A stretch of DNA of 34,470 nucleotides from a virus (lineage: Duplodnaviria; Heunggongvirae; Uroviricota; Caudoviricetes): positions 1 to 34,470 of IMG/VR virus record IMGVR_UViG_2917875804_000002. One strand, 5' to 3'. Positions 1-34,470 of the stretch are shown here, one piece after another. The position numbers were made by a program, and so were the translations under genes. The notes beneath the pieces are model-generated. The model was not told the DNA's origin. It searched no databases and saw only the letters and a program-made list of their open reading frames with translations. Position 1 is the first letter of the stretch; each line of letters begins with the position of its first letter.

Positions 1-634
1 TTACTGGATACTATTTGAAATAAGAAAGGAATTGCTAGGGTTATCAACGTTAGCATTAAGGCTGCTATCGCAATTATAAAGCCAGTTTTTTTTCGCAATG
101 ATTTTATTGATTTCTTTCGGAAGTCGTTTATCAAGTCCTGCAAAATCCTTTCCCATTCTAGAAAGTTGATCATCATCCAATTTATTTACGATTTTTCCTT
201 GGTAACCTTTAGTCGGTATTATTGTTTTAAATAATAACATTCGGGCTACTGCAGAATTTTGTGTCAATGAGAATGGTTCTTTTGACATATTTACAAGATA
301 TATTGAAATTATGCCATTATATCCAGGGTCAATATGCCCTGGATTCGTCATGATAATTCCATTTTTTGATAGTGTGTTTCTTGGGAATATTACACCAGCT
401 AAATTTTTTTGCAAGTTGGAATTTTTCATTTAACTCTAATATTACAGTTTCCCCTGGCATCAGGATATGGTTGTTACGTGTTTTTTTATTGTCTTGACAG
501 TCTGGTATATGTATTGTTTTTACAGAGAGATCAATGCTTGCAGATTGAACTTTAAATGTTCCATTTAATACCGTTAATGGATCAAAAATGTTGCCTCGCT
601 GAATTTCATCATTGATTTCTATTTCAGACAGCAT
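1..634 (-). CDS. dCTP deaminase/dUTPase-fold protein with C-terminal extension (cargo); reading frame broken by apparent 1-nt insertion in T7 run 404-410
   Basis: ORFs 329..634 and 1..429 overlap in different frames; N-part MLSEIEINDEI...NGTFKVQSASIDLSV and C-part NLAGVIFPRNTLSKNGIIMTNPGHIDPGYNGIISIYLVN resemble E. coli Dcd by eye (RIDPGWSG-type motif); RBS-like AGGA upstream of ATG at 634; strongly AT-rich. Confidence 0.6.
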
Positions 635-697
635 ATCAAAATCCTATATTTGTAAAGTTATTATAAATTAGCCAGAGGGTTTTTTATTACTGCATCT

Positions 698-1675
698 TCA
701 AGATGCTCTGGGGAAAAAATGTGCATAAATCATAGTCATTTTTATATCAGAGTGGCCTAAAATATCTCGTAAAACCAAAATATTACCACCATTCATCATA
801 AAATGGCTGGCGAATGTATGGCGCAGAACGTGGGTGCATTGGCCCTCTGGTAACTCAATGTCAGCTCGCTTTACTGCTCGTTCAAAGGCTTTTCTGCAAG
901 GAGTGAATAACTTCCCTCTGTTCTTAGGGAGTTCGTCATACAGATCCTGAGATATCGGCACGGTACGGTTTTTCTTGCCCTTAGTCTTGGTATAGGTGAT
1001 CCGGTATTTCGATAACTGATGGCCCTGCAGATTTTCGGCTTCACTCCAGCGCGCGCCGGTGGCCAGGCATATTTTTGCAATTAAAAGTAGACTGGGGTTT
1101 TGAGAATCAGCACAGGCATCCAGCAGACGTTTAATTTCTTCCGGGGTCAGGAACGCCAGTTCACCCTCAGCAATTTTAAATGTTGGCAGCCCGGCAAGCG
1201 GATTGGGGGCTGACCAGTGGCCCAACTTTTTCAGTGTGCCAAAAACAGATGATAGGTTGCGCTGTTCAAGGTTTACAGTGCGGGGCTTAACGGGCGACAT
1301 AAGCGTGCCCTCTTCATTTCGCACTTCACCTTTTAGCCGCGCTTCTCGGTATTTAGTAAAATCACCGGCTGTCAGCTCTGAGGCGATGGGATCGCCTAGA
1401 CCATTACAGATAATTCTAAGTTTCGCCATGAGGCGCTTGGGGTCTGCGAGTGTTTGACCATACAGGGAATACCACTGCTCAATTAATTCTGATAGGTGTC
1501 GCCGATCTTCCTTTTCCCCCAGCCATGGCTTTTTGTTCACTTCTTCCATTGTGAAGCTTTCAAAAGCAATGGCTTCGCCTTTCGTAGCAAATTGCTTACG
1601 CACGCGCTTGCCATTGCGTCCATGGGGATAGCACTCGCACAACCATTTACCGTTTGGCTGTTTTCTGACAGTCAT
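698..1675 (-). CDS. int: tyrosine site-specific integrase (P2/186 Int family)
   Basis: 325-aa ORF; C-terminal catalytic region HVLRHTFASHFMMNGGNILVLRDILGHSDIKMTMIYAHF with R/H/R/Y signature; position next to repressor. Confidence 0.9.
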   Translation of the reverse strand: MTVRKQPNGKWLCECYPHGRNGKRVRKQFATKGEAIAFESFTMEEVNKKPWLGEKEDRRHLSELIEQWYSLYGQTLADPKRLMAKLRIICNGLGDPIASELTAGDFTKYREARLKGEVRNEEGTLMSPVKPRTVNLEQRNLSSVFGTLKKLGHWSAPNPLAGLPTFKIAEGELAFLTPEEIKRLLDACADSQNPSLLLIAKICLATGARWSEAENLQGHQLSKYRITYTKTKGKKNRTVPISQDLYDELPKNRGKLFTPCRKAFERAVKRADIELPEGQCTHVLRHTFASHFMMNGGNILVLRDILGHSDIKMTMIYAHFFPRAS

Positions 1676-1677
1676 GT

Positions 1678-2310
1678 TTAGATACTCTTTATTACTTTGA
1701 CTGCACGCCCAATAACTTCCACATCATCAGTAGAGCACTCGAAAGACGCTTCATCTTGATTTACTACAATCTTATTGCCGGGAATCCGCATGATTTTTGC
1801 AACAATAATCATTCCATCAATATTGATAAGCCAGAATCCATTGCTGACCTGTTTAATTGATTTATCGATGAGATAACAATTAGTAGGGGTTTCTAAGAAC
1901 ATCAATTCTTCATAATCTGCAGGTAATATGCTGTGGTCTAGGAAAATCTCTTCATCAATACTGAGTTGTCCATTCTCCAGGGTTCCTTTAGGAATAGCTG
2001 GAGTTATGAGTTTGGATAACGGTTTAATTGCTTGTTTGTTCTCATTATGAGAACTTTTCTCAGGCTCAGCTCCTCCTTTCATGCTTCCCTGTCCTGTAGC
2101 TAACCAAAGCAACGAAACACCGGTTTCTAGTGCGCACTGAATTATCCAGTCAGCAGGAAAGCTGTCACGTAACACTCTGTTTGCCATAGTGCTTTTTGAG
2201 ACATTCAGGTGCTCGCTTAATGCCTGCTTAGTTGTGAATCCATAAGCCTCAAGCAGCCTTTCAATAGCTGCCTTACCTCCCGTATCGGAACCCATTCTGA
2301 TGTTTAACAT
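1678..2310 (-). CDS. cI: CI-type lysogeny repressor (186 CI-like, N-terminal HTH)
   Basis: 210-aa ORF directly upstream of int on same strand, divergent from apl/cII; HTH-like segment TTKQALSEHLNVSKSTMANRV. Confidence 0.75.
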   Translation of the reverse strand: MLNIRMGSDTGGKAAIERLLEAYGFTTKQALSEHLNVSKSTMANRVLRDSFPADWIIQCALETGVSLLWLATGQGSMKGGAEPEKSSHNENKQAIKPLSKLITPAIPKGTLENGQLSIDEEIFLDHSILPADYEELMFLETPTNCYLIDKSIKQVSNGFWLINIDGMIIVAKIMRIPGNKIVVNQDEASFECSTDDVEVIGRAVKVIKSI

Positions 2311-7683: not shown

Positions 7684-7872
7684 ATGCAGGATTATTTTTT
7701 AGAGTCGTTGAAACTCCAGCGAATTGATTTTTTTCTTAAGCTTGTAGTGGCCAGTGAATGTAGTGATCAGGAAAAAGAGCTTGCGCTGCTTTGGATTTCA
7801 GAACTGACGGATGAACTCATGGCAAAAATCAGAACCCACGAATATAACCGCTCAATGGATGTTGTTAACTGA
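7684..7872 (+). CDS. small SOS-controlled protein, possible Tum-type antirepressor analogue
   Basis: 62-aa ORF with AGGAGG RBS (7673-7678); position equals 186 tum (LexA-regulated operon before the DinI homologue). Confidence 0.4.
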   Translation: MQDYFLESLKLQRIDFFLKLVVASECSDQEKELALLWISELTDELMAKIRTHEYNRSMDVVN

Positions 7873-7882
7873 GGGGTAATTT

Positions 7883-8116
7883 ATGCGCATTGAAATAATG
7901 ATCGATAAAGAGCAGAAGATTAGCCAGTCTACCCTGGACGCCCTTGAATCCGAGCTTTACCGCAATCTGCGCCCCCTGTATCCCAAAACGGTAATTCGCA
8001 TCCGCAAAGGTAGCTCTAACGGTGTGGAACTGACCGGACTGAAACTGGACGAAGAAAAAAAACAAGTGATGAAAATTATGCAGCAGGTATGGGAAGACGA
8101 CAGCTGGCTGCATTAA
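7883..8116 (+). CDS. DinI-family protein
   Basis: 77 aa MRIEIMIDKEQKISQSTLDALESELYRNLRPLYP...IMQQVWEDDSWLH closely parallels E. coli DinI by eye (MRIEV...WE..D.W). Confidence 0.75.
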   Translation: MRIEIMIDKEQKISQSTLDALESELYRNLRPLYPKTVIRIRKGSSNGVELTGLKLDEEKKQVMKIMQQVWEDDSWLH

Positions 8117-8229
8117 GAAACGTTGCCCCCAGGAGGATTCATTCTGATGGGGGCTGGTTTGGGCAACGAGTGAAACGAGGCGTAAAGTGGTCGGCCTGTT
8201 GGCAGCGTTGAAAAGCGAAAGCCGCAATA

Positions 8230-8649
8230 CTATAAATTAGTTTTTATTAGATAGTGCCTTTGTGCCCCTGCTTTAGGGAAATCAGGTAATGACATTTGAA
8301 GTATATAACCCTGTTTTTCATAAAAAGGGAGCGCCTGGAAGCTAAATGTATCGACAAGGCCATGAATACAACCGTTCATCACACCTTCTTTCTCAGCCAT
8401 GCTCATAAGTTTGCTACCCAAACCGCCACTCCGTGCTGATTCACTCACCCAAAGATAATCAATACACAGCCATGGACCTTTCCTGTCCGCAATTAACCCA
8501 CCTACCATCTCTCCGATTTCATTTCTGCAGTAGACACCGATCTGTCCATTTTTACTAAAATCGATAAACTGAGCATTGTAGCTTCTTAGCCCCGCTAACA
8601 GTTCTTCTCTATCATATTCAGTAACTTTATGAACTACTTGAATGTTCAT
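8230..8649 (-). CDS. GNAT-family N-acetyltransferase (cargo at the old/tin-equivalent position)
   Basis: 139 aa; acetyl-CoA binding motif region [12 protein letters not shown]; AT-rich; oriented opposite to early operon, just inside cos. Confidence 0.7.
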
Positions 8650-9084: not shown

Positions 9085-10369
9085 ATGTTAGTTGGTTTAG
9101 AAGGAATGATGATGCAAAAGCAAAGGGTTTCTCAAGTATTCGTTCCCGGAGGTATGCCAAAGTTAACTTATGTTGAACGGACTGGGGGCGAGATAAAAGA
9201 AAGACTTGAGAGTGCAAAAGATAATTTGTGTAAGTTGGTTACCTTGACGGGACAAACCAAATCCGGAAAGACTGTACTTACACAAATGGTGTTTCCCTTT
9301 ACTGATCCGAATGTCATATGGATTGATGGTGGCGGTATTGCTGTCGAAAATGATATTTGGGAGCAAGTTTTAGACAAATTAGATATTTACACTAATGAGG
9401 AGGTCAACGTTTCTGATTCCTCATCAACTAATATCTCAGGCAAGGTTCATGCATCTGGTAGTGCCCTTGTTGTAAAAGGAGGAGGAGAGGCAGGGGTTTC
9501 GCAGACCGATGGGTCTTCTAAAGGTAAAAAAAAATGCAAGAACGATTACCCCAAAAAATGCGGCGATTAAAGCCTTAGCAGATAGTCAGGCTAGCCTTAT
9601 TATTGATGACTTTCATTACTTAGATAGAGAAATGCAGGGCAGCTTTGTAAGAGCAGTAAAGCCTTTAGTGTTTCATGGTGTACCTGTAATATTAATTGCT
9701 ATTCCACATAGAAGATACGATGCGATAAAAGTTGAGAGGGAGATTACTGGAAGATTAGAAAATATAATGATGCCATATTGGTCAGAAGATGAATTAAAAC
9801 AGATTGCATCATCGGGTTTTCCTCTTTTAAATATATCTGTATCTCAAGACGTTATAGACTTGCTTGCATCTGAAGCTTTAGGTAGCCCACATTTAATGCA
9901 AGAATTTTGCAAAAGTTTGTGTGCTGCTCATTCAATAAAAGAAACATCTGAGCAGACAGTGACAATATCTTCTATTGATGACTCACTGTTTAGAAATGTA
10001 GCTGAATCAACAGGGAAAGTGGTATTCGATAAATTAGCAACTGGCCCTCGCCAACGTTCCGATAGGTTGCCTCGTTTATTAAAGAATGGCGAGAGAGTTG
10101 ATATTTATAAAGTTGTCTTATATGCACTCTCTAACATGAAACCAGGAATGCAAACTATTCAGTATGAAGAGTTACGTACTGCTATTAGAGAAATAGTCGC
10201 AGAAACACCTCCCCAGGCTAATGAGGTTACACGAGTTCTTGAAAAAATGAGCGAGATCGCATCTAGTGAAGAGGCTTCAACACCGGTTATAGATTGGGAG
10301 AGAGAAGAACAAAAACTACATATTACCGATCCATTTTTTGCGTTTTACCTAAAATGGCGTGATCATTAA
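9085..10369 (+). CDS. P-loop NTPase of unknown family (cargo); frame broken in A9 run 9526-9534; true start probably ATG 9106-9112
   Basis: ORFs 9085..9570 and 9509..10369 overlap by 62 nt; Walker A GQTKSGKT in N-part, Walker B-like LIIDDFHYL in C-part; AT-rich; GAAGGA RBS before ATG triplet. Confidence 0.6.
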
Positions 10370-10409: not shown

Positions 10410-11445
10410 TTATGACCCTGCTAGGTAATACTTATCGAAAATAATAACTCTCTCGCCAAGCCAGTCGTTTAGTTCTTCCATTTGCTTCTGTAATGGCATT
10501 AATTCGTTCCGTACAAAAACTCGACTCGCCTTCTCCACATCCCCAAAACCCCCAACATTATTCGGCATTATCCCCATCATTTGCGGCGGCACGCGGTGTG
10601 CCGCCATCATGTCATCCCGGCTCACGTTCTTGATGTTCAGAAATTCATCCTTCGCTGCGACTTCTGACAACGGGATGATCTGAAGCCCGTCTTTTTTTGC
10701 CATTAGGCGAGTACATAAACAGGTTGCGGAAGTTACCAGGACCTTTGGCACTTTTCATCGCGTTGCGGAGATTGTTCACATCCTCCTGATTCTGCGCGGC
10801 ATCGGTCATATACATGATGAAGCCTGCATGGCTGCCGTTGATGTAATATTTGCGTCGGAACAGCGTGGCGGACTCATTGAGCAGGGCGGACGGAATGGCA
10901 GAAAGATAGCCGGGCAGGCCGTAGATCTCCTGGTTAATGTCCGGTTCCATCAGATGAAAAATGCTGCCTTTCGTGAACTGATACGGCTGGGTTGTCATAC
11001 CGTATTGCACAAACCAGTAGGTATCCAGGTCTAACCCGCGTCGGGTGTATTTTGCCAGAGCAGGCTCAAGGGCGATAACTTCACCGAAGCGGTTCGTGCG
11101 TTTCTCCAGGTAGGCGTTACCAAATACCAGATAGTCCTGCACAAAACGTGAAAAAGCCTGCTGGCTGAGCAGCGGGTGGGGGATGTAGGTACTGGTCAGA
11201 ATGTTGCATTTCACCGCAATTGGTGAACTGTGATGCACGGCGGCGCGGAAGGTGCGCGCCAGTCCGTCAAAGCTTACTGGCGGCTCATACCAGCGATCTG
11301 TCTGTACGCATTCCACATAGTCCAGTAGTTCGCGGCGGTCCAGAACAGGAACGGGATCACCGAAGCTGAATGCTTCGGCTGTAGTTTGACTTTTATGCTG
11401 GATCTGGTTCGTCGACGCAGCGCGGTTCTTCTTACTCTTTCCCAT
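10410..11445 (-). CDS. Q: portal (capsid portal protein, P2 gpQ-like); frame broken in T7 run 10691-10697
   Basis: ORFs 10645..11448 and 10410..10751 overlap; combined length about 345 aa; convergent partner of terminase, position next to cos. Confidence 0.85.
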
Positions 11446-13211
11446 CAAAAAATCTCCACAATATTACTGGTATTGGCGGACTCGCCCTGCAGTGGTTCGT
11501 TAAACAGTGCGTGCATTGTTGCCCAGGCCAGATCGGCGTGGCTGGCTTCTTCGCTGCGGCTGGCTTCATAGGTTGGGCGGTTGCCACTGGCGGTGGTTGC
11601 GCGACGGATTGCCATGAATGACTGCGCAATGTCGGTGTGCCCGGCGTCAAACTCCAGACGGCGGTGGCTGATAATGTCGTAGGCCTTGAGTACCAGGGCG
11701 TTTTTAACGTTGGGGTTGTAGACAAACTCCCGGACGGCAGGAAAGAACGCTTTCACGTTCTCGTAAACCCCGTGACCAACGCCGGTTGAGTCGATACCGA
11801 TATAAGTCACGTTGTACTGTTCGGTCAGTTTTTTGATGGCGTCAGCCTGGGCGCGGAAGTCCATCCCGCGCCACTGGTGACGCTCAAGAATGCGGAACTT
11901 ACCACCCGGCACGGCTGGCGGTGCCACCACCACGCATCCGGCGCTGTCGCCGTTTTGCGTACCTTTTGCCGGGTCATAACCGATCCACACTTCGCGCCAG
12001 CCAAACGGGCGCAGCGCCAGTGCATGAAAGTCGGTCCAGACTTCCCAACTGTCCACCATGCACGCCTGCAGCTCGCTGAGCGGAAACACGGACGCGAGAT
12101 CGTCCACAAACTCGCACATCAGCAGGTTCTGGTATTCGTCCGGGCTGTACTCCATGCGCAACTGGTCGAGGTCGAACAGGTTACAGCCGCCGCGCACCGC
12201 ATCTTCCACGGTGACTATCTGGCGGTACTGCCCGTCTGCGCACAGCAGGCCGGGGGCCAGATTGCTGTGGGACAGGTCGATGTCCACCTTATCGGCTTTG
12301 TTGCGCCCACGGTTGAACAGCGCACCGGACCAGAATGGATAAGCACTGTGGGTCAGACTGGATGGCGTGGAAAAATAGGTCTGCCGCCATTTTTTGTGAA
12401 TAGCCATACCGGAAGCCACTTTGCGCAGCTCCTGGAATTTCGGGATCCAGAAATATTCATCCAGATACAAGTTGCCGTGGTAACTCTGGGCCGTGCGGGC
12501 ATTGGTTCCGAGGAAGTAAAGCGTGGCCCCATTAGGAAGCACCATCGGATCGCCTTTCAGCTCCACCTCCACTTCTTTGGCGAAGTCGATGATGTACTGC
12601 TTAAAGACGTGGGCCTGTGCCTTACTGGCGGAAAGGAAAATCTGGTTACGTCCGGTCAGCAGGGCGTCAATCAGGGCTTCACGGGCAAAATAGAAGGTCG
12701 CGCCGATCTGGCGTGACTTCAGCAGGTTGCGGATGCGGTTGGTTTTTCCGGCTTCCCACCAGTGGCGCTGGTAGTTGAACATGGAGGAATGAAAGATTTC
12801 TTCCAGCTTCTCAATCTGTTCATCGGTGAAAACATTCTTTTCCGGCTGACGGCGCGGGCCTTTGTTACGGTTGGCGACGTTAGGGTTTAAGTCGGCTTCG
12901 TTGCCGCCATTGTTAAACTTACCGATCCGCGCATGGCGCTCCGACTGGCGCGCCAGCAGGTCAATCTCTTTGAAATCTTTCCCTTCTTTGTGCTCCTTCA
13001 TAATGAGCTGGCAGTAGCGTGCGGCGGTGGTGAGCTGCATCTGATCCAGCGGCCCATAGTCACCCCACTTGTCGCGTTTTTTCCAGCTGTGAACGGTTGC
13101 AACTTTCTCGCCCAGCATTTCAGCAATGCGGGCTACGCGGTATCCCTGAAAGTACAGCAGCATGGCCTGCCGACGGGGATCGAGATCTGCGGGTGTCAGT
13201 GTGGTGTTCAT
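11445..13211 (-). CDS. P: terminase large (ATPase) subunit, P2 gpP-like
   Basis: 588-aa ORF upstream of portal on same strand, divergent from scaffold gene. Confidence 0.9.
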   Translation of the reverse strand: MNTTLTPADLDPRRQAMLLYFQGYRVARIAEMLGEKVATVHSWKKRDKWGDYGPLDQMQLTTAARYCQLIMKEHKEGKDFKEIDLLARQSERHARIGKFNNGGNEADLNPNVANRNKGPRRQPEKNVFTDEQIEKLEEIFHSSMFNYQRHWWEAGKTNRIRNLLKSRQIGATFYFAREALIDALLTGRNQIFLSASKAQAHVFKQYIIDFAKEVEVELKGDPMVLPNGATLYFLGTNARTAQSYHGNLYLDEYFWIPKFQELRKVASGMAIHKKWRQTYFSTPSSLTHSAYPFWSGALFNRGRNKADKVDIDLSHSNLAPGLLCADGQYRQIVTVEDAVRGGCNLFDLDQLRMEYSPDEYQNLLMCEFVDDLASVFPLSELQACMVDSWEVWTDFHALALRPFGWREVWIGYDPAKGTQNGDSAGCVVVAPPAVPGGKFRILERHQWRGMDFRAQADAIKKLTEQYNVTYIGIDSTGVGHGVYENVKAFFPAVREFVYNPNVKNALVLKAYDIISHRRLEFDAGHTDIAQSFMAIRRATTASGNRPTYEASRSEEASHADLAWATMHALFNEPLQGESANTSNIVEIF

Positions 13212-23802: not shown

Positions 23803-24813
23803 ATGAAAGAGAATAAAATACGTTCTGCCGATGGCGTGAGAGGTTTCGCTTTGATGATTGTTGTGGTGATGCATGCTACGGGACTATTCTTTCCCTCACT
23901 TCATGATCATCTCGGAGGTACGGGGCAGCCCGGTGTTTGGTTGTTTTTTGTTCTTAGCGCCTTTTTGTTGACACATAAATTTATTAATTCTGGTTTTTCG
24001 TTTTTGAATGTGTTGAGTTATCTTTTAGGGCGAACAATAAGGATATTACCGATTTTTTATATTGCAGTATTAATTTATTACCTTATGGGATTTTATGATT
24101 TAGAGAAAATGAAATCGATAATTTCATTTGATAGTACTTACATCCATTTCTGGACTATTCCGATAGAATTCAAGTTTTACTTTTTGTTGCCGATTGTGGT
24201 TTATCTCGCATCTAGTATCCAGAAAGTTGCAGGTAGAAAATATTCTTTGTTGTTTTTGATATTGTTAACCTTAGCGTTCGCTTTTATATACCCTTATACG
24301 GATGACGAAATCAACGGTAGGCTACCGTATTACATTCCTGTTTTTATGTATGGAATTATAATTGCGTTTATGTATAACTATTTTCAAATTAAAATATCAT
24401 CTCTCGTTAGTGATGGGGTGTCAATTGCGATTATATTAATATTTATAATGTTGACCCCTCCTTTTCAGGGGGCTAATGGTTGGCTGGGTAATAAATTTGT
24501 GGTATTAGGGCCATTTATTGCTCTCTTTGTATATTTGCAAGTAAATTCCAGTGGGTATGTAAGCGCGGTTTTATCTTCAAAAATCATGGCGGATTTGGGG
24601 AAATATAGTTTTTCAATTTATTTGTTTCATATAATGATAATTTTTATTGTTTATCCTAAATTTTTGGATAATGTTACTGCATACTTAGTTACTATAGCTT
24701 TATGTATTGGCGGTGGGGCTATTGCCTATCATTGCATTGAATCTCCCTTGGAATCGTTCAGACATAAGCTTATGAAAAGAATAACGCAGGCTTATCAGAA
24801 TCAAAATATTTAA
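23803..24813 (+). CDS. acyltransferase family 3 integral membrane protein (OafA/Oac-like O-acetyltransferase), cargo at Z/fun-equivalent locus
   Basis: 336 aa, about 10 hydrophobic segments, N-terminal RGFALMIVVVMH (conserved His in first TM), very AT-rich, own upstream region. Confidence 0.75.
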   Translation: MKENKIRSADGVRGFALMIVVVMHATGLFFPSLHDHLGGTGQPGVWLFFVLSAFLLTHKFINSGFSFLNVLSYLLGRTIRILPIFYIAVLIYYLMGFYDLEKMKSIISFDSTYIHFWTIPIEFKFYFLLPIVVYLASSIQKVAGRKYSLLFLILLTLAFAFIYPYTDDEINGRLPYYIPVFMYGIIIAFMYNYFQIKISSLVSDGVSIAIILIFIMLTPPFQGANGWLGNKFVVLGPFIALFVYLQVNSSGYVSAVLSSKIMADLGKYSFSIYLFHIMIIFIVYPKFLDNVTAYLVTIALCIGGGAIAYHCIESPLESFRHKLMKRITQAYQNQNI

Positions 24814-32677: not shown

Positions 32678-32703
32678 GTGAAACCTCTTGGCTTGATTTC
32701 AAG

Positions 32704-32742
32704 ATGGCGACAGGCAAGACGGACGCAAAACTCTGTCGCCAT
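32704..32742. repeat. perfect 10-bp inverted repeat (ATGGCGACAG ... CTGTCGCCAT) in the leader of the WYL/BRCT gene
   Basis: Arms at 32704-32713 and 32733-32742 with 19-nt spacer, 27-64 nt upstream of the start codon at 32677. Confidence 0.5.
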
Positions 32743-32761
32743 TTTGCCGCCACTACCAAAG

Positions 32762-32794
32762 AAAAAGGGGCTACGCCTTCACGTAACCCCTTGA
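32762..32794 (-). terminator. ssrA rho-independent terminator
   Basis: On minus strand GGGGTTACG-TGAAGG-CGTAGCCCC followed by TTTTT, immediately downstream of tmRNA CCA end. Confidence 0.55.
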
Positions 32795-32800
32795 TTTATT

Positions 32801-33163
32801 TGGTGGAGCTGGCGGGAGTTGAACCCGCGTCCGAAATTCCTACATCCTCGGTACTACATGCTTAGTCAGTCTTTACATTCGCTTGCCAGCTGCGGACAGA
32901 CACGCCACTAACAAACTAGCCTGATTAAGTTTTAACGCTTCAACCCCAGGCTGGGCTTCCACGCGATCTCTTTTGGGTTTGACCTCTCTTGATCCCCGTC
33001 CTAAGAGCGGAGGCTAGGGAGAGAGGGCTCTAAGCAGGTTATTAAGCTGCTAAAGCGTAGTTTTCGTCGTTTGCGACTATTTTTTGCGGCTTTTTACGAG
33101 GCCAACCGCCCCTCGGCATGCACCTTGGGTTTCGCAAATCCCGTCGAATCCAGAATCAGCCCC
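32801..33163 (-). ncRNA. ssrA: tmRNA (SsrA RNA)
   Basis: 363 nt; reverse complement begins GGGGCTGATTCTGGATTCGACGGG and ends CCAGCTCCACCA, matching E. coli tmRNA essentially throughout. Confidence 0.95.
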
Positions 33164-33377
33164 AATGTGTAACGTTAAGTATACCAGATTTTTGAGCGCC
33201 ATGACTAGCCCCAAAGGCGTTATCATCCTGGAATTAGCGCCTGCATAGTATGATTTTTCTTCGATTAAGCAATGGGATGGCTACATCAATGTCAGATTTG
33301 ACAGTCGACAAGGTGTTCATTCGCGCCACCGGATAGGGAGGCGCGGTGAAGATTTGATTAGTATCGCTTATATAGGT

Positions 33378-33861
33378 TTAACGGTGCGCGTTTTTCATGA
33401 TACGTGCTTTATCAACCTGCCATTCACGTTCTTTGATATCAGAACGTTTATCGTGTTGTTTCTTACCTTTCGCGACGCCGATTTTTACTTTGCACCAGGC
33501 ATTTTTCCAGTACAGGGAGAGCGCCACTACGGTATAACCTTCACGGTTCACTCGGCCATAGAGAGAGTCAAGTTCGCGCTGGTTGAGAAGCAGTTTGCGG
33601 GTGCGAGTAGGGTCGCACACCACGTGCGTGGAAGCCACTGCCATCGGCGTGATGTTTGCTCCAAACAGGAACGCTTCTCCGTCGCGCAGAAGGACATAGC
33701 TGTCGCTAATATTGGCTTTTCCTGCGCGCAGGGATTTAACTTCCCAGCCTTGCAGGGCAAGTCCCGCTTCGAACTCTTCTTCAATAAAGTATTCGTGACG
33801 GGCGCGCTTGTTAAGCGCGATGGTCGCTGAACCAGGTTTATGTGCTTTTTTTCTTCGTCAT
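33378..33861 (-). CDS. smpB: SsrA-binding protein SmpB; frame broken by extra base in T7 run 33846-33852 (expected A6 after ATGACGAAG)
   Basis: ORF 33378..33644 is identical by eye to the E. coli SmpB C-terminal 88 aa; N-terminal MTKKK start codon at 33861 is out of frame by one nucleotide. Confidence 0.85.
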
Positions 33862-33993
33862 AAGCGTCGTGAATCATCGGTAATCTGAAATCGAAAATAC
33901 CCCATATCAATCCTGCGGGGGACAAGGCTCTATCTTAGCATGAACCGGATGTTACCCAGCGTCGGGATAGCGTTTTTTTTTACGGCAGGATAA

Positions 33994-34470
33994 ATGATAT
34001 TATTTGTTGGATTTTTGTTGATGGAAATTGTTATGCCTCAGATTAGCCGGACCGCACTGGTACCCTACAGCGCGGAGCAAATGTATCAGTTAGTGAATGA
34101 CGTTCAGTCTTATCCTCAGTTTTTACCAGGGTGCACTGGAAGCCGGATTCTGGAGTCCACTCCTGGGCAGATGACCGCTGCGGTAGATGTGTCTAAGGCT
34201 GGGATCAGCAAAACGTTTACTACCCGCAACCAATTGACCAGTAACCAAAGTATTCTGATGAGTCTGGTTGATGGACCGTTTAAGAAATTGATCGGCGGCT
34301 GGAAGTTTACGCCGTTGAGCCAGGACGCGTGCCGTATTGAGTTTCATCTCGACTTTGAGTTTACCAATAAGTTGATTGAACTCGCCTTTGGTCGCGTGTT
34401 TAAAGAGCTGGCAGCTAATATGGTGCAGGCTTTTACTGTTCGTGCAAAAGAGGTCTACAGTGCCAGGTAA
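33994..34470 (+). CDS. ratA: RatA/PasT (YfjG) SRPBCC-family ribosome-association toxin homologue
   Basis: 158 aa, MPQISRTALVPYSAEQMYQLVNDVQSYPQFLPGC...; divergent from smpB as in E. coli K-12; window ends exactly at its stop codon. Confidence 0.85.
   Translation: MILFVGFLLMEIVMPQISRTALVPYSAEQMYQLVNDVQSYPQFLPGCTGSRILESTPGQMTAAVDVSKAGISKTFTTRNQLTSNQSILMSLVDGPFKKLIGGWKFTPLSQDACRIEFHLDFEFTNKLIELAFGRVFKELAANMVQAFTVRAKEVYSAR

What the first reader, a model, noticed from the sequence alone, without database searches (positions are those of the whole stretch)
1..697. AT-rich dCTP-deaminase/dUTPase-fold gene with a novel C-terminal tail next to the integrase
Seen in sequence: joined across a T7 run (404-410), ORFs 329..634 and 1..429 give a protein of about 210 aa whose first 150 aa follow the trimeric Dcd/Dut fold (HIDPGYNG core motif) and whose last 60 aa (LDDDQLSRMGKDFAGLDKRLPKEINKIIAKKNWLYN...) have no obvious counterpart in housekeeping Dcd. 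It lies directly downstream of int on the same strand with its own RBS, is far more AT-rich than the phage backbone, and no attL copy separates it from int, so it appears to be prophage cargo at the attachment end. By eye, the position aligned to the catalytic Glu of E. coli Dcd (VLEFYN) reads SIYLVN, hinting at an inactive or mechanistically different member. Established knowledge: depleting or editing the dNTP pool (dCTP deaminase, dGTPase) is a recognised anti-phage strategy, and phage Dut-like proteins moonlight as signalling proteins. Inference: a candidate nucleotide-depletion, nucleotide-sensing or exclusion gene.
Basis: partly seen in the sequence, partly recalled or inferred. Interest (0 to 1): 0.6.

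Follow-up and report, generated by a model that had tools for sequence, protein, structure and literature searches.

The report
Membrane-anchored Dut-like gene paired with ThyX
The gene next to the prophage integrase is real but was misread because of sequencing frameshifts: it encodes a membrane-anchored dCTP-deaminase/dUTPase-fold protein without the deaminase residue, always partnered with an unusual thymidylate-synthase (ThyX) gene, and this undescribed two-gene cassette travels on phages, conjugative elements and defence islands across many bacterial phyla.

Summary
The gene is real, and the catalytic Glu of Dcd is indeed replaced (Tyr here; no Glu in any of the ~280 homologues examined). 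The "novel tail" is half artefact. The window carries two +1 homopolymer insertions and is cut inside the gene. Intact alleles in two E. coli genomes encode 261 aa: a Dcd/Dut fold, a conserved D-F…R linker, one transmembrane helix and a C-terminal coiled coil.

The gene is prophage cargo. The attL copy, an ssrA 3' fragment, lies beyond a second gene, thyX, that the window lacks.

The pair is a conserved cassette of about 477 clusters at 50% identity, found in Proteobacteria, Acidobacteriota, Actinomycetota, Cyanobacteria and others. A thymidylate-synthase-type gene sat beside the Dcd-like gene in every locus with enough flanking DNA. All 54 partners and the 120 closest ThyX homologues have Gln in place of the Arg that reads uracil O4. 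In one prophage ThyX is replaced by a ThyA carrying Asn177→Asp, the known dCMP switch.

Contexts are the integrase–att slot of P2-like phages, ICEs, type I R-M islands and Tal-type dCTP deaminase genes.

My best reading, which is inference, is an uncharacterised conflict module that diverts deoxycytidine nucleotides. No publication was found.

The parts
1..634 (-). First ~210 of 261 codons of the membrane-anchored Dcd/Dut-fold gene ('DCD-TM'). After correction it is identical to E. coli WP_053891068.1. The window is cut inside the gene, so the last 51 codons and the partner thyX lie left of position 1.
   Evidence: The DNA is 99.4-99.7% identical to two E. coli chromosomes that have an intact 786-nt CDS. 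Pfam DCD and dUTPase. phrog_1663 at 4.7e-28 covers aa 2-241.
404..410 (.). T7 homopolymer (A7 on the coding strand), a +1 insertion relative to the intact alleles (A6).
   Evidence: Alignment A1; blastn indel list.
85..92 (.). T8 homopolymer, a +1 insertion relative to the intact alleles (T7).
635..697 (-). int-DCD-TM spacer with RBS AGGA at 642-645. No terminator-like or promoter-like site was found on the minus strand. Homology to other Felsduovirus/Elveevirus phages ends at about 676.
   Evidence: Sequence; promoter/terminator scan; phage megablast.
698..1675 (-). P2/186-type tyrosine integrase. Its C-terminus is shortened in the window by a +1 insertion in the A-run at 709-714.
1678..2310 (-). 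CI-type repressor on the same strand as int and the cassette. The order cI-int-DCD-TM-thyX suggests expression in the lysogen, which is inference.
32801..33163 (-). ssrA (tmRNA), the integration target. Its 3' end (35-mer at 32811-32845) is the att repeat, and its second copy lies left of thyX in the E. coli relatives.
   Evidence: ARAGORN; pattern search; flank alignment A5.

Best explanation
Window 1-634 is the first four fifths of a 261-codon gene. It is probably intact in the organism, and the two frameshifts are probably homopolymer sequencing errors. The protein has a cytoplasmic trimer-type Dcd/Dut-fold domain, a conserved D-F...R linker, one transmembrane helix and a coiled coil of about 55 aa on the outer side.

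It is the first gene of a conserved two-gene cassette. The second gene is a special ThyX in which the Arg that hydrogen-bonds uracil O4 is always Gln. Here the cassette is cargo between int and attL of an ssrA-integrated Fels-2/186-like prophage. It is probably co-transcribed with cI and int.

Proposed mechanism (inferred, not shown): the cassette is an accessory conflict or anti-phage module that acts on deoxycytidine nucleotides.
- The Dcd-fold protein has lost deamination but keeps the dUTPase-type Asp. It would bind dCTP and hydrolyse it to dCMP.
- The partner (ThyX-Gln, or ThyA-Asn177Asp in one phage) would add a one-carbon group at C5 of dCMP.
- The net effect would be to drain dCTP irreversibly into a 5-modified dCMP.
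- The membrane anchor would serve for control or localisation.
For: Shown:
- Fold and missing residues. The Dcd catalytic Glu position is Y/T/C/A/S/V, and none of the ~280 homologues examined has Glu there (24, 96, 141 further representatives; the first two sets overlap). The motif IV Gln is absent. The motif II Arg is Pro in most members. The Dut-type Asp and the TNPGH-DPG-Y-G signature are near-invariant in 141 representatives found by a full-HMM search.
- Architecture. A transmembrane segment is present in 88/89 and 123/126 members. The AF2 model (pLDDT 81) shows one long helix at 173-243.
- Obligate pairing. ThyX lies next to the gene in every locus with enough flanking DNA, across many phyla. 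It is usually abutting or overlapping the Dcd-like gene.
- ThyX signature. All 54 of 54 partners and 120 of 120 best ThyX homologues read ...SQ[LM]SQQY. The canonical Arg (Mtb Arg107, Tm Arg90) contacts C4=O and the phosphate of dUMP.
- Non-orthologous replacement. In prophage L078 the partner is a ThyA-family enzyme with Asn177 replaced by Asp and Cys146 kept. It comes with a PfkB kinase orthologous to the kinases that follow ThyX-Gln in three other loci. From established knowledge, Asn177Asp switches thymidylate synthase to dCMP, and T4 dCMP hydroxymethylase has Asp179.
- Context. The cassette sits in the int-att slot of P2-like phages, which holds varied cargo and is reported as a defence hotspot. 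It also occurs in an ICE and beside GmrSD/AAA_15, in a P. aeruginosa island with nSTAND and helicase genes, after type I R-M genes, and within two genes of a Tal-type dCTP deaminase defence gene in 3 of 37 loci. NUDIX and MazG genes are inserted in the Acidobacteria variant.
- It is redundant for housekeeping. It is present in only 2 of 5426 complete E. coli genomes.
Against: - No experiment exists, and defence is guilt by association. Many neighbours are ordinary metabolic genes, and PADLOC has no model for either protein.
- The phosphate-binding residues of dUTPases (motif II Arg/Ser, motif IV Gln, motif V) are not conserved, so triphosphate hydrolysis is not assured. The domain could only bind a ligand.
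- ThyX chemistry activates N3-deprotonated dUMP. Cytosine is a harder substrate without a nucleophile, and Gln can still donate a hydrogen bond to uracil O4.
- The partner passes the NCBIfam thyX equivalog cutoff (154.8 against 87.9).
- The ThyA-Asp replacement is a single case.
- The transmembrane helix and coiled coil are not explained by a pure pool-draining enzyme.
Confidence: 0.4

Rival explanations
1. Ordinary auxiliary metabolic module. A dUTPase-like enzyme supplies dUMP, and ThyX makes dTMP to boost thymidylate supply for the phage or host, as in many lytic phages.
For: ThyX passes TIGR02170 and keeps the RHR, Ser, Tyr, Arg172 and Arg199 equivalents. The Dut-type Asp and the deoxyribose-gating Tyr/Phe are conserved. 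Phages often carry Dut, Dcd and ThyX genes. PHROG annotates the family as dCTP deaminase.
Against: The Arg-to-Gln change is invariant in the ThyX partners. The Dut/Dcd catalytic Ser, Gln and Glu are lost. A transmembrane helix and coiled coil are conserved. The cassette occurs in ICEs, R-M and defence islands rather than replication modules. It sits in a temperate phage downstream of cI-int. ThyX is replaced by a dCMP-type ThyA in L078.
Confidence: 0.2
2. Sensor-effector abortive-infection protein. The Dut-fold domain is a catalytically dead sensor of a phage-made or imbalanced deoxynucleotide. Ligand binding orders the D-F...R arm and drives the three transmembrane helices to permeabilise the membrane. 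ThyX-Gln makes or removes the ligand.
For: Most catalytic residues are lost while the nucleotide-pocket residues remain. The conserved D-F...R segment sits where dUTPase motif V closes over the substrate, directly before the transmembrane helix. Established knowledge: phage dUTPases act as signalling proteins, and membrane-spanning effectors are common in defence.
Against: A single transmembrane helix per chain and a strictly conserved Asp argue for catalysis. An enzymatically near-complete ThyX would not be needed. NUDIX, MazG and PfkB partners point to a metabolic pathway.
Confidence: 0.12
3. Base-modification pathway for the element's own DNA, acting as anti-restriction. The cassette makes 5-methyl- or 5-hydroxymethyl-dC nucleotides that are incorporated into phage or ICE DNA. 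This would be analogous to the T4 gp56-gp42-gp1 route.
For: The parts list (NTP pyrophosphatase-like, thymidylate-synthase-like, kinase) mirrors phage hypermodification pathways. ThyA-Asp177 plus a PfkB kinase lie in a prophage next to tail genes. The cassette is carried by mobile elements.
Against: The two-gene form has no dNMP kinase or modified-dNTP-tolerant polymerase. The cassette also sits in chromosomal defence islands and next to R-M systems. It lies in the lysogenic transcription unit rather than with the replication genes. The transmembrane anchor is unexplained. T4 gp56 is not homologous.
Confidence: 0.13
4. One reading: a dCTP-deaminase-type nucleotide-depletion enzyme that converts dCTP to dUTP.
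For: Dcd fold. Co-location with Tal-type dCTP deaminase defence genes in 3 loci.
Against: The catalytic Glu is absent in every member examined. It is below the TIGR02274 cutoff. It is unrelated in fold to the zinc-dependent Tal-type deaminase and has no PADLOC hit.
Confidence: 0.03
5. In this particular strain the gene is a dead pseudogene, meaning the frameshifts are real. This reading can be true together with any of the functional readings above.
For: Two frameshifts lie within 634 nt. One neighbouring homopolymer also varies between the two E. coli genomes.
Against: All five indels in 3.4 kb are +1 insertions in A/T runs, and they also hit int and the cox-like gene. The portal gene and a PDC-S59 homologue are split too. 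This pattern fits sequencing error, because a prophage with all of these broken would be unlikely to keep 99.7% identity elsewhere.
Confidence: 0.12

Closest known systems
Bifunctional dCTP deaminase-dUTPase (Dcd-Dut; B. halodurans 4xjc, M. tuberculosis 2qlp/2qxx, M. jannaschii 1ogh) and E. coli Dcd (1xs1)
   Same: Same beta-fold (Foldseek E 1e-11 to 1e-8). Shared IDPG(Y/F)xG motif with the hydrolytic Asp. A G(Y)QG-type segment follows the core.
   Different: The catalytic Glu, the motif Ser and the Gln are replaced family-wide. It has its own invariant TNPGH signature and D-F...R motif. It adds a transmembrane helix and a coiled coil. It scores far below the NCBIfam cutoffs.
Trimeric dUTPase (Dut, PF00692)
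   Same: Motif I (S-x-D) and motif III (Asp, aromatic residue, Gly) are conserved. Pfam dUTPase 1e-12.
   Different: Motif II Arg-Ser, motif IV Gln and the glycine-rich motif V are missing. The protein is membrane-anchored.
Flavin-dependent thymidylate synthase ThyX (M. tuberculosis 3gwc/2af6), for the partner gene
   Same: 40% identity. RHR...S..Y motif, Tyr, His and Arg172/Arg199 equivalents are kept. It scores above the TIGR02170 cutoff.
   Different: Mtb Arg107 (Tm Arg90), which contacts uracil C4=O, is Gln in all 174 clade members examined. One extra residue follows RHR. The gene is always linked to the Dcd-like membrane protein.
Nucleotide-depletion defences (Tal-type dCTP deaminase, dGTPase)
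   Same: Same presumed target, the deoxynucleotide pool and dCTP in particular. Found within two genes of the cassette in 3 of 37 loci, once directly after thyX.
   Different: Unrelated folds (zinc cytidine deaminase with a kinase-like N-terminus). No PADLOC model hits either cassette protein. No experimental evidence exists for the cassette.
T4 hydroxymethyl-dC pathway (gp56 dCTPase, gp42 dCMP hydroxymethylase, gp1 kinase)
   Same: Functional analogy only: NTP pyrophosphatase, then a thymidylate-synthase-family enzyme acting on dCMP, then a kinase. The L078 ThyA has the Asp found in gp42-type enzymes.
   Different: gp56 is an all-alpha dUTPase_2 protein and is not homologous (hhalign probability 0.1). 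The usual partner is ThyX, not ThyA. The kinase is PfkB-type and is present in only a few loci.
DefensePredictor system DS-4 (ThyA-type thymidylate synthase, adenylate kinase, base-hypermodification protein, TIR)
   Same: An experimentally validated anti-phage system built from phage-like pyrimidine-modifying enzymes (PMC13092281).
   Different: Different proteins: a PF00303 thymidylate synthase, no Dcd/Dut-fold membrane protein and no ThyX. WP_053891067 and WP_053891068 were not found in the supplementary text that is held.

Membership tests
dCTP deaminase Dcd (TIGR02274 / PF22769) | Trimeric Dcd/Dut beta-fold | tested here: met
   Pfam DCD 5.9e-15. The AF2 model matches 4xjc, 2qlp and 1xs1.
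dCTP deaminase Dcd (TIGR02274 / PF22769) | Catalytic Glu (E. coli Glu138) that activates the deaminating water | tested here: not met
   Tyr in this protein. T, Y, C, A, S or V, and never Glu, in any of the ~280 homologues examined.
dCTP deaminase Dcd (TIGR02274 / PF22769) | Score above the curated equivalog cutoff | tested here: not met
   56.2 bits against a cutoff of 92.8.
Trimeric dUTPase (PF00692 / TIGR00576) | Motif III catalytic Asp and deoxyribose-gating aromatic residue | tested here: met
   HIDPGY. Asp in 141/141 and Tyr/Phe in 140/141 of the unbiased representatives.
Trimeric dUTPase (PF00692 / TIGR00576) | Motif II Arg/Lys-Ser, motif IV Gln and C-terminal glycine-rich motif V | tested here: not met
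   The motif II Arg position is Pro in 135/141. The motif II Ser position is S/A/N/T. The motif IV Gln position is T/R/S. No RGxxGFGS motif is present and a D-F...R segment stands in its place. NCBIfam scores are 45.5 and 40.7 bits against cutoffs of about 103.
Trimeric dUTPase (PF00692 / TIGR00576) | dUTP (or dCTP) pyrophosphatase activity | not testable with these tools
   Needs an enzyme assay.
ThyX, flavin-dependent thymidylate synthase (partner gene) | ThyX motif RHRX7-8S and a score above the TIGR02170 cutoff | tested here: met
   RHRAGFSYSQLS. 154.8 bits against 87.9. Pfam Thy1 2.6e-48.
ThyX, flavin-dependent thymidylate synthase (partner gene) | Conserved Arg after the motif Ser (S-x-R-Y; Mtb Arg107, Tm Arg90) that contacts uracil O4 and the phosphate | tested here: not met
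   Gln in 54/54 partners and in 120/120 closest homologues. The role of the Arg is taken from PMC9571937 and PMC11940539.
Tal-type dCTP deaminase defence gene (PADLOC PDLC02373) | Zinc cytidine-deaminase domain (HAE...PCxxC) with a kinase-like N-terminus | tested here: not met
   Neither cassette protein has a PADLOC hit. Such genes are neighbours of the cassette, not homologues of it.
Cargo of the integrase-att hotspot of P2-like prophages | Lies between int and the att repeat, with different genes in the same slot in related phages | tested here: met
   The ssrA 3' repeat lies left of thyX. Other cargo occupies the slot in RE-2010, Cartapus, LF82 and strain 120899. The same slot is filled by the cassette in 7 IMG/VR prophages. 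The hotspot is reported in 10.64898/2026.02.27.708500.
Anti-phage defence system (generic) | Protection against phage when expressed | not testable with these tools
   Only association with defence genes is shown.

The most novel reading that the evidence does not exclude
The partner enzyme would be the first ThyX-family (flavin-dependent) enzyme that works on a cytosine nucleotide, adding a methyl or hydroxymethyl group at C5 of dCMP. It would be fed by a membrane-anchored Dcd-fold dCTP pyrophosphatase. Together they would form a widespread mobile immune module that disables phage replication by converting dCTP into a dead-end modified nucleotide, possibly triggered through the membrane-spanning and periplasmic part.
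Probability: 0.25. Interest if true: 0.85.

Novelty: new variant of a known kind. Interest (0 to 1): 0.66.

Why it matters
If the reading holds, three things follow.
- It defines an undescribed, phylum-spanning two-gene system of about 477 clusters at 50% identity, built from two textbook pyrimidine enzymes. Each has been re-tooled at the residue that decides chemistry or substrate.
- It would add a new route to nucleotide-pool immunity.
- It could reveal a new ThyX reaction. That is relevant because ThyX is an antibacterial drug target and its mechanism is still debated.

The hypothesis can be tested directly with two small proteins and clear point mutants: Gln to Arg in ThyX, Asp101 to Ala in the Dcd-like protein, and deletion of the transmembrane helix.

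Even if the cassette proves metabolic, a membrane-tethered Dut-fold protein strictly coupled to ThyX has not been described.

On the practical side, this shows that homopolymer errors in this assembly created a false C-terminus.

Tried and rejected
- An att site between the gene and int was rejected. The ssrA 35-mer occurs only once in the window, at 32811-32845, and the 63-nt spacer has no copy. The repeat lies left of thyX in the relatives.
- A routine chromosomal dcd orthologue was rejected.
- Homology to the T4 gp56 dCTPase, which I had recalled from memory, was tested and rejected. gp56 is Pfam dUTPase_2, and hhalign gives probability 0.1.
- PADLOC v2 has no model for either protein.
- Literature searches on thyX, dCTP deaminase, anti-phage, defence island and prophage found no description.
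- The thymidylate synthase in the DefensePredictor paper is a different, ThyA-based system, and its 'dUTPase' candidate is a MazG-C/aGPT-Pplase system.
- An own promoter or terminator between int and the gene was not detected by the consensus scan. This is weak evidence either way.
- N-terminal extensions in five longer family members, including a 611-aa one, have no Pfam domain.
- I looked for a universal third gene. None is universal. PfkB, NUDIX, MazG and the Tal-type deaminase are each lineage-restricted.
Full report
**1. What is in the window**

On the minus strand, an ATG at 634..632 follows an AGGA at 642-645. It lies 63 nt downstream of a P2/186-type integrase (698-1675), which in turn follows a CI repressor (1678-2310). 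Region 1-750 is 30-33% GC, while the rest of the phage is about 45-55%.

Megablast finds the same 700 nt in only 2 of 5426 complete E. coli genomes, at 99.4-99.7% identity. There it is one intact 786-nt CDS, WP_053891068.1, annotated 'dCTP deaminase domain-containing protein'.

The three-way alignment shows that the window differs by two +1 insertions. One is A7 against A6 on the coding strand (window T-run 404-410). The other is A8 against A7 (window T-run 85-92).

The window is cut at about codon 210 of 261.

The true continuation is TGFIIAIAALMLTLITLAIPFLFQIV, a transmembrane helix. A coiled-coil-like tail of about 55 aa follows.

All five indels in the first 3.4 kb are +1 insertions in A/T homopolymers. 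They also shorten int and break the cox-like gene. The portal gene and a hotspot gene are split too. I therefore regard the frameshifts as probable sequencing errors.

The host flank is only 90-96% identical to E. coli, so the source is a divergent Escherichia.

**2. It is prophage cargo, and it has a partner**

In both E. coli genomes the gene is followed after 2 nt by thyX (WP_053891067.1). Left of thyX the two genomes are unrelated. They become identical exactly at a 45-nt copy of the 3' end of ssrA. The complete ssrA gene is at window 32801-33163, and the same 35-mer lies at 32811-32845.

The element is thus an ssrA-integrated Fels-2/186-like prophage. Both genes lie inside the att repeats, between int and attL.

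Homology to phages RE-2010, Cartapus and Fels-2 stops at about window 676. Those phages, the LF82 prophage and E. coli strain 120899 carry other genes in this slot: a 401-aa protein annotated as RES/NAD+-binding in Cartapus, or a 222-aa hypothetical protein.

Seven IMG/VR prophage contigs have the same int → Dcd-like → thyX order. Their Dcd-like proteins are 48-100% identical to P0001, the 97%-identical allele that headed the query alignment.

A 2026 preprint reports the integrase-att interval as a minor defence hotspot of P2-like phages.

No terminator-like site separates int from the gene. Expression from the lysogenic cI-int transcript is plausible, but this is inference.

**3. The protein**

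- *Family matches.* Pfam gives DCD 5.9e-15 and dUTPase 1e-12 over aa 52-137. NCBIfam dCTP_deam scores 56 bits against a cutoff of 92.8. PADLOC finds nothing. PHROG 1663 ('dCTP deaminase') covers aa 2-241, including the tail.
- *Structure.* An AF2 model (pLDDT 81) has the Dcd/Dut beta-core, two short helices, and one long helix at 173-243. Foldseek's best PDB matches are bifunctional dCTP deaminase-dUTPases (4xjc at E 1e-11; 2qlp/2qxx), followed by E. coli Dcd.
- *Active-site alignment.* HMMER alignments put Tyr where Dcd has the catalytic Glu. They put Asn at the motif Ser, Arg at the motif IV Gln, and keep the hydrolytic Asp.
- *Family-wide pattern.* Across 96 family members, and across 141 further cluster representatives found by a full-HMM search of 1.84 billion proteins, the Glu position is never Glu (T, Y, C, A, S or V). 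The Gln position is T, R, S or K. The motif II Arg is mostly Pro. In contrast S-x-D, TNPGH-(I/V)-DPG-(Y/F)-x-G, N-M and a D-F...R segment are nearly invariant.
- *Membrane anchor.* A hydrophobic 19-mer follows D-F...R in 88/89 and 123/126 proteins.
- *Family size.* There are 477 clusters at E ≤ 1e-30.
- *Caveat.* For the 51 genome loci the TNPGH[IV]DPG motif was itself the search key. Its invariance is meaningful only in the HMM-derived sets.

**4. The pairing**

A ThyX gene was found next to the Dcd-like gene in every locus with enough flanking DNA, with one exception described in section 5. The taxa are Enterobacterales, Pseudomonas, Shewanella and Neiella, Alphaproteobacteria, Acidobacteriota, Actinomycetota, Nostoc, Verrucomicrobiota and Myxococcota, plus marine metagenomes. 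ThyX is usually abutting or overlapping on the same strand.

The partners are about 50-76% identical to one another even where the Dcd-like proteins are only 23-30% identical. They are 40% identical to M. tuberculosis ThyX.

All 54 partners, and all 120 best ThyX homologues in the 5.8-billion-protein set, read RHRxGxxxSQ(L/M)SQQY. The canonical motif is S-x-R-Y. That Arg (Mtb Arg107, Tm Arg90) is described as conserved, as hydrogen-bonding dUMP C4=O and the phosphate, and as lying next to the catalytic Tyr.

**5. A natural replacement experiment**

In prophage contig L078 the Dcd-like membrane protein has no ThyX. Instead it is flanked by a ThyA-family enzyme (Pfam 5e-78) and a PfkB kinase.

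Aligned to E. coli ThyA, Cys146 is kept, but the segment LGLPFN177IA reads LGLPLDVA. From established enzymology, Asn177/229 is the determinant that excludes dCMP. The Asn-to-Asp mutant prefers dCMP, and T4 dCMP hydroxymethylase carries Asp179.

The PfkB kinase is orthologous to the kinases that directly follow ThyX-Gln in loci L025, L040 and L052 (E 1e-34 to 1e-53). A fourth PfkB gene, partial at a contig end, follows ThyX-Gln in L008.

Two unrelated one-carbon transferases thus occupy the same module, and each is altered at the residue that reads the pyrimidine C4 substituent. This is the main reason I propose a cytosine nucleotide as the substrate. It rests on one replacement case and on inference.

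**6. Context**

- A Citrobacter ICE, and an island with a DNA methylase, GmrSD and AAA_15/DUF3696.
- A P. aeruginosa island with S8 peptidase/AAA, NYN, a 1708-aa helicase and an nSTAND protein.
- A small marine integrative element, again directly after its integrase and next to NERD, PLD-helicase and MC2/CTD6 genes.
- Directly after type I R-M genes, twice.
- Among 146 immediate neighbours in 37 diverse loci, the only recurrent defence hit of note is the Tal-type dCTP deaminase (PADLOC PDLC02373, E 8e-154). It occurs in 3 loci, once immediately after thyX. UvrD/GajB-like, NERD-UvrD, DRT and PDC candidates also occur, but so do ordinary metabolic genes.
- Acidobacteria insert NUDIX and MazG-like genes between the two cassette genes.

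**7. Interpretation**

*Shown:*
- The architecture of the protein.
- The loss of the deaminase residue.
- The obligate pairing with ThyX.
- The ThyX Arg-to-Gln signature.
- Carriage on mobile elements and in defence-type contexts.

*Inferred:*
- The Dcd-fold domain still binds dCTP or dUTP and hydrolyses it through the retained Asp.
- The partner modifies dCMP at C5.
- The outcome is diversion of the dCTP pool, in the manner of known nucleotide-depletion immunity.
- The membrane-spanning part provides control or localisation.

*Rivals:*
- A plain dUTPase plus ThyX thymidylate module.
- A dead-enzyme sensor with a membrane effector.
- A base-modification pathway for the element's own DNA.

**8. 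Novelty**

No paper describing this pair was found. The nearest validated relative in concept is DS-4 of DefensePredictor, which uses a ThyA-type synthase with a kinase and a TIR domain.

I rate the finding as a new variant of a known kind (nucleotide-directed conflict systems). Its function remains unproven.

Noticed in passing
window 9085-10369 (+): In the classical P2 gpA-portal hotspot, two overlapping ORFs (9085-9570 and 9509-10369) match consecutive parts (profile positions 4-137 and 147-403 of 428) of the PADLOC candidate defence protein PDC-S59. It appears to be one gene split by a frameshift.
   Followed up: partly
window 7865-8649 (-): A GNAT acetyltransferase (8230-8649) is followed by a 120-aa ORF with no Pfam hit, in the same hotspot. 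It may be a GNAT-type toxin-antitoxin pair.
   Followed up: no
window 23803-24813 (+): An Acyl_transf_3 family acyltransferase sits among the tail genes. It could be an O-antigen acetylase-type lysogenic-conversion gene.
   Followed up: no
window 709-714, 2387-2391, 2565-2572, 10686-10693; portal ORFs 10410-10751 and 10645-11448: There are further +1 homopolymer insertions relative to close relatives. They shorten int, break the cox/apl-like gene and split the portal gene. The assembly seems to have systematic homopolymer errors.
   Followed up: partly
L001 5855-9190; L032 3977-7319; L053 4813-8173: A trio of a serine recombinase and two ParB/RepB-like genes recurs within a few kb of the cassette in E. 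coli TUM12355, an Acidobacteria MAG and a Pseudomonadota MAG. It may be a mobile element or system that shares insertion neighbourhoods with the cassette.
   Followed up: no
L011 204-1409; L012 1769-2974; L013 2746-3951: In phages RE-2010 and Cartapus and in the LF82 prophage, the int-att slot holds a 401-aa protein that Cartapus annotates as a RES/NAD+-binding protein. This is another uncharacterised candidate cargo or defence gene.
   Followed up: no
L001 (NZ_CP134376 1231-1244 kb) and L002: The two E. coli prophages that carry the cassette are decayed. The replication endonuclease, portal and tape-measure genes are truncated, and TUM12355 lacks the equivalent of window ~11.2-27.9 kb. Yet both keep identical, intact cassette proteins, int and cI, which hints at retention by selection.
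   Followed up: partly
L021-L023, L028, L032, L041, L044: An Acidobacteriota variant of the cassette has a NUDIX hydrolase (with a weak WGR-like region) and a 350-aa MazG-like protein between the Dcd-like gene and thyX.
   Followed up: partly
window 32700-34470: The host flank (ssrA, smpB, ratA, yfjF) is only 90-96% identical to all 5426 complete E. coli genomes. The window probably comes from a non-coli or divergent Escherichia lineage.
   Followed up: partly
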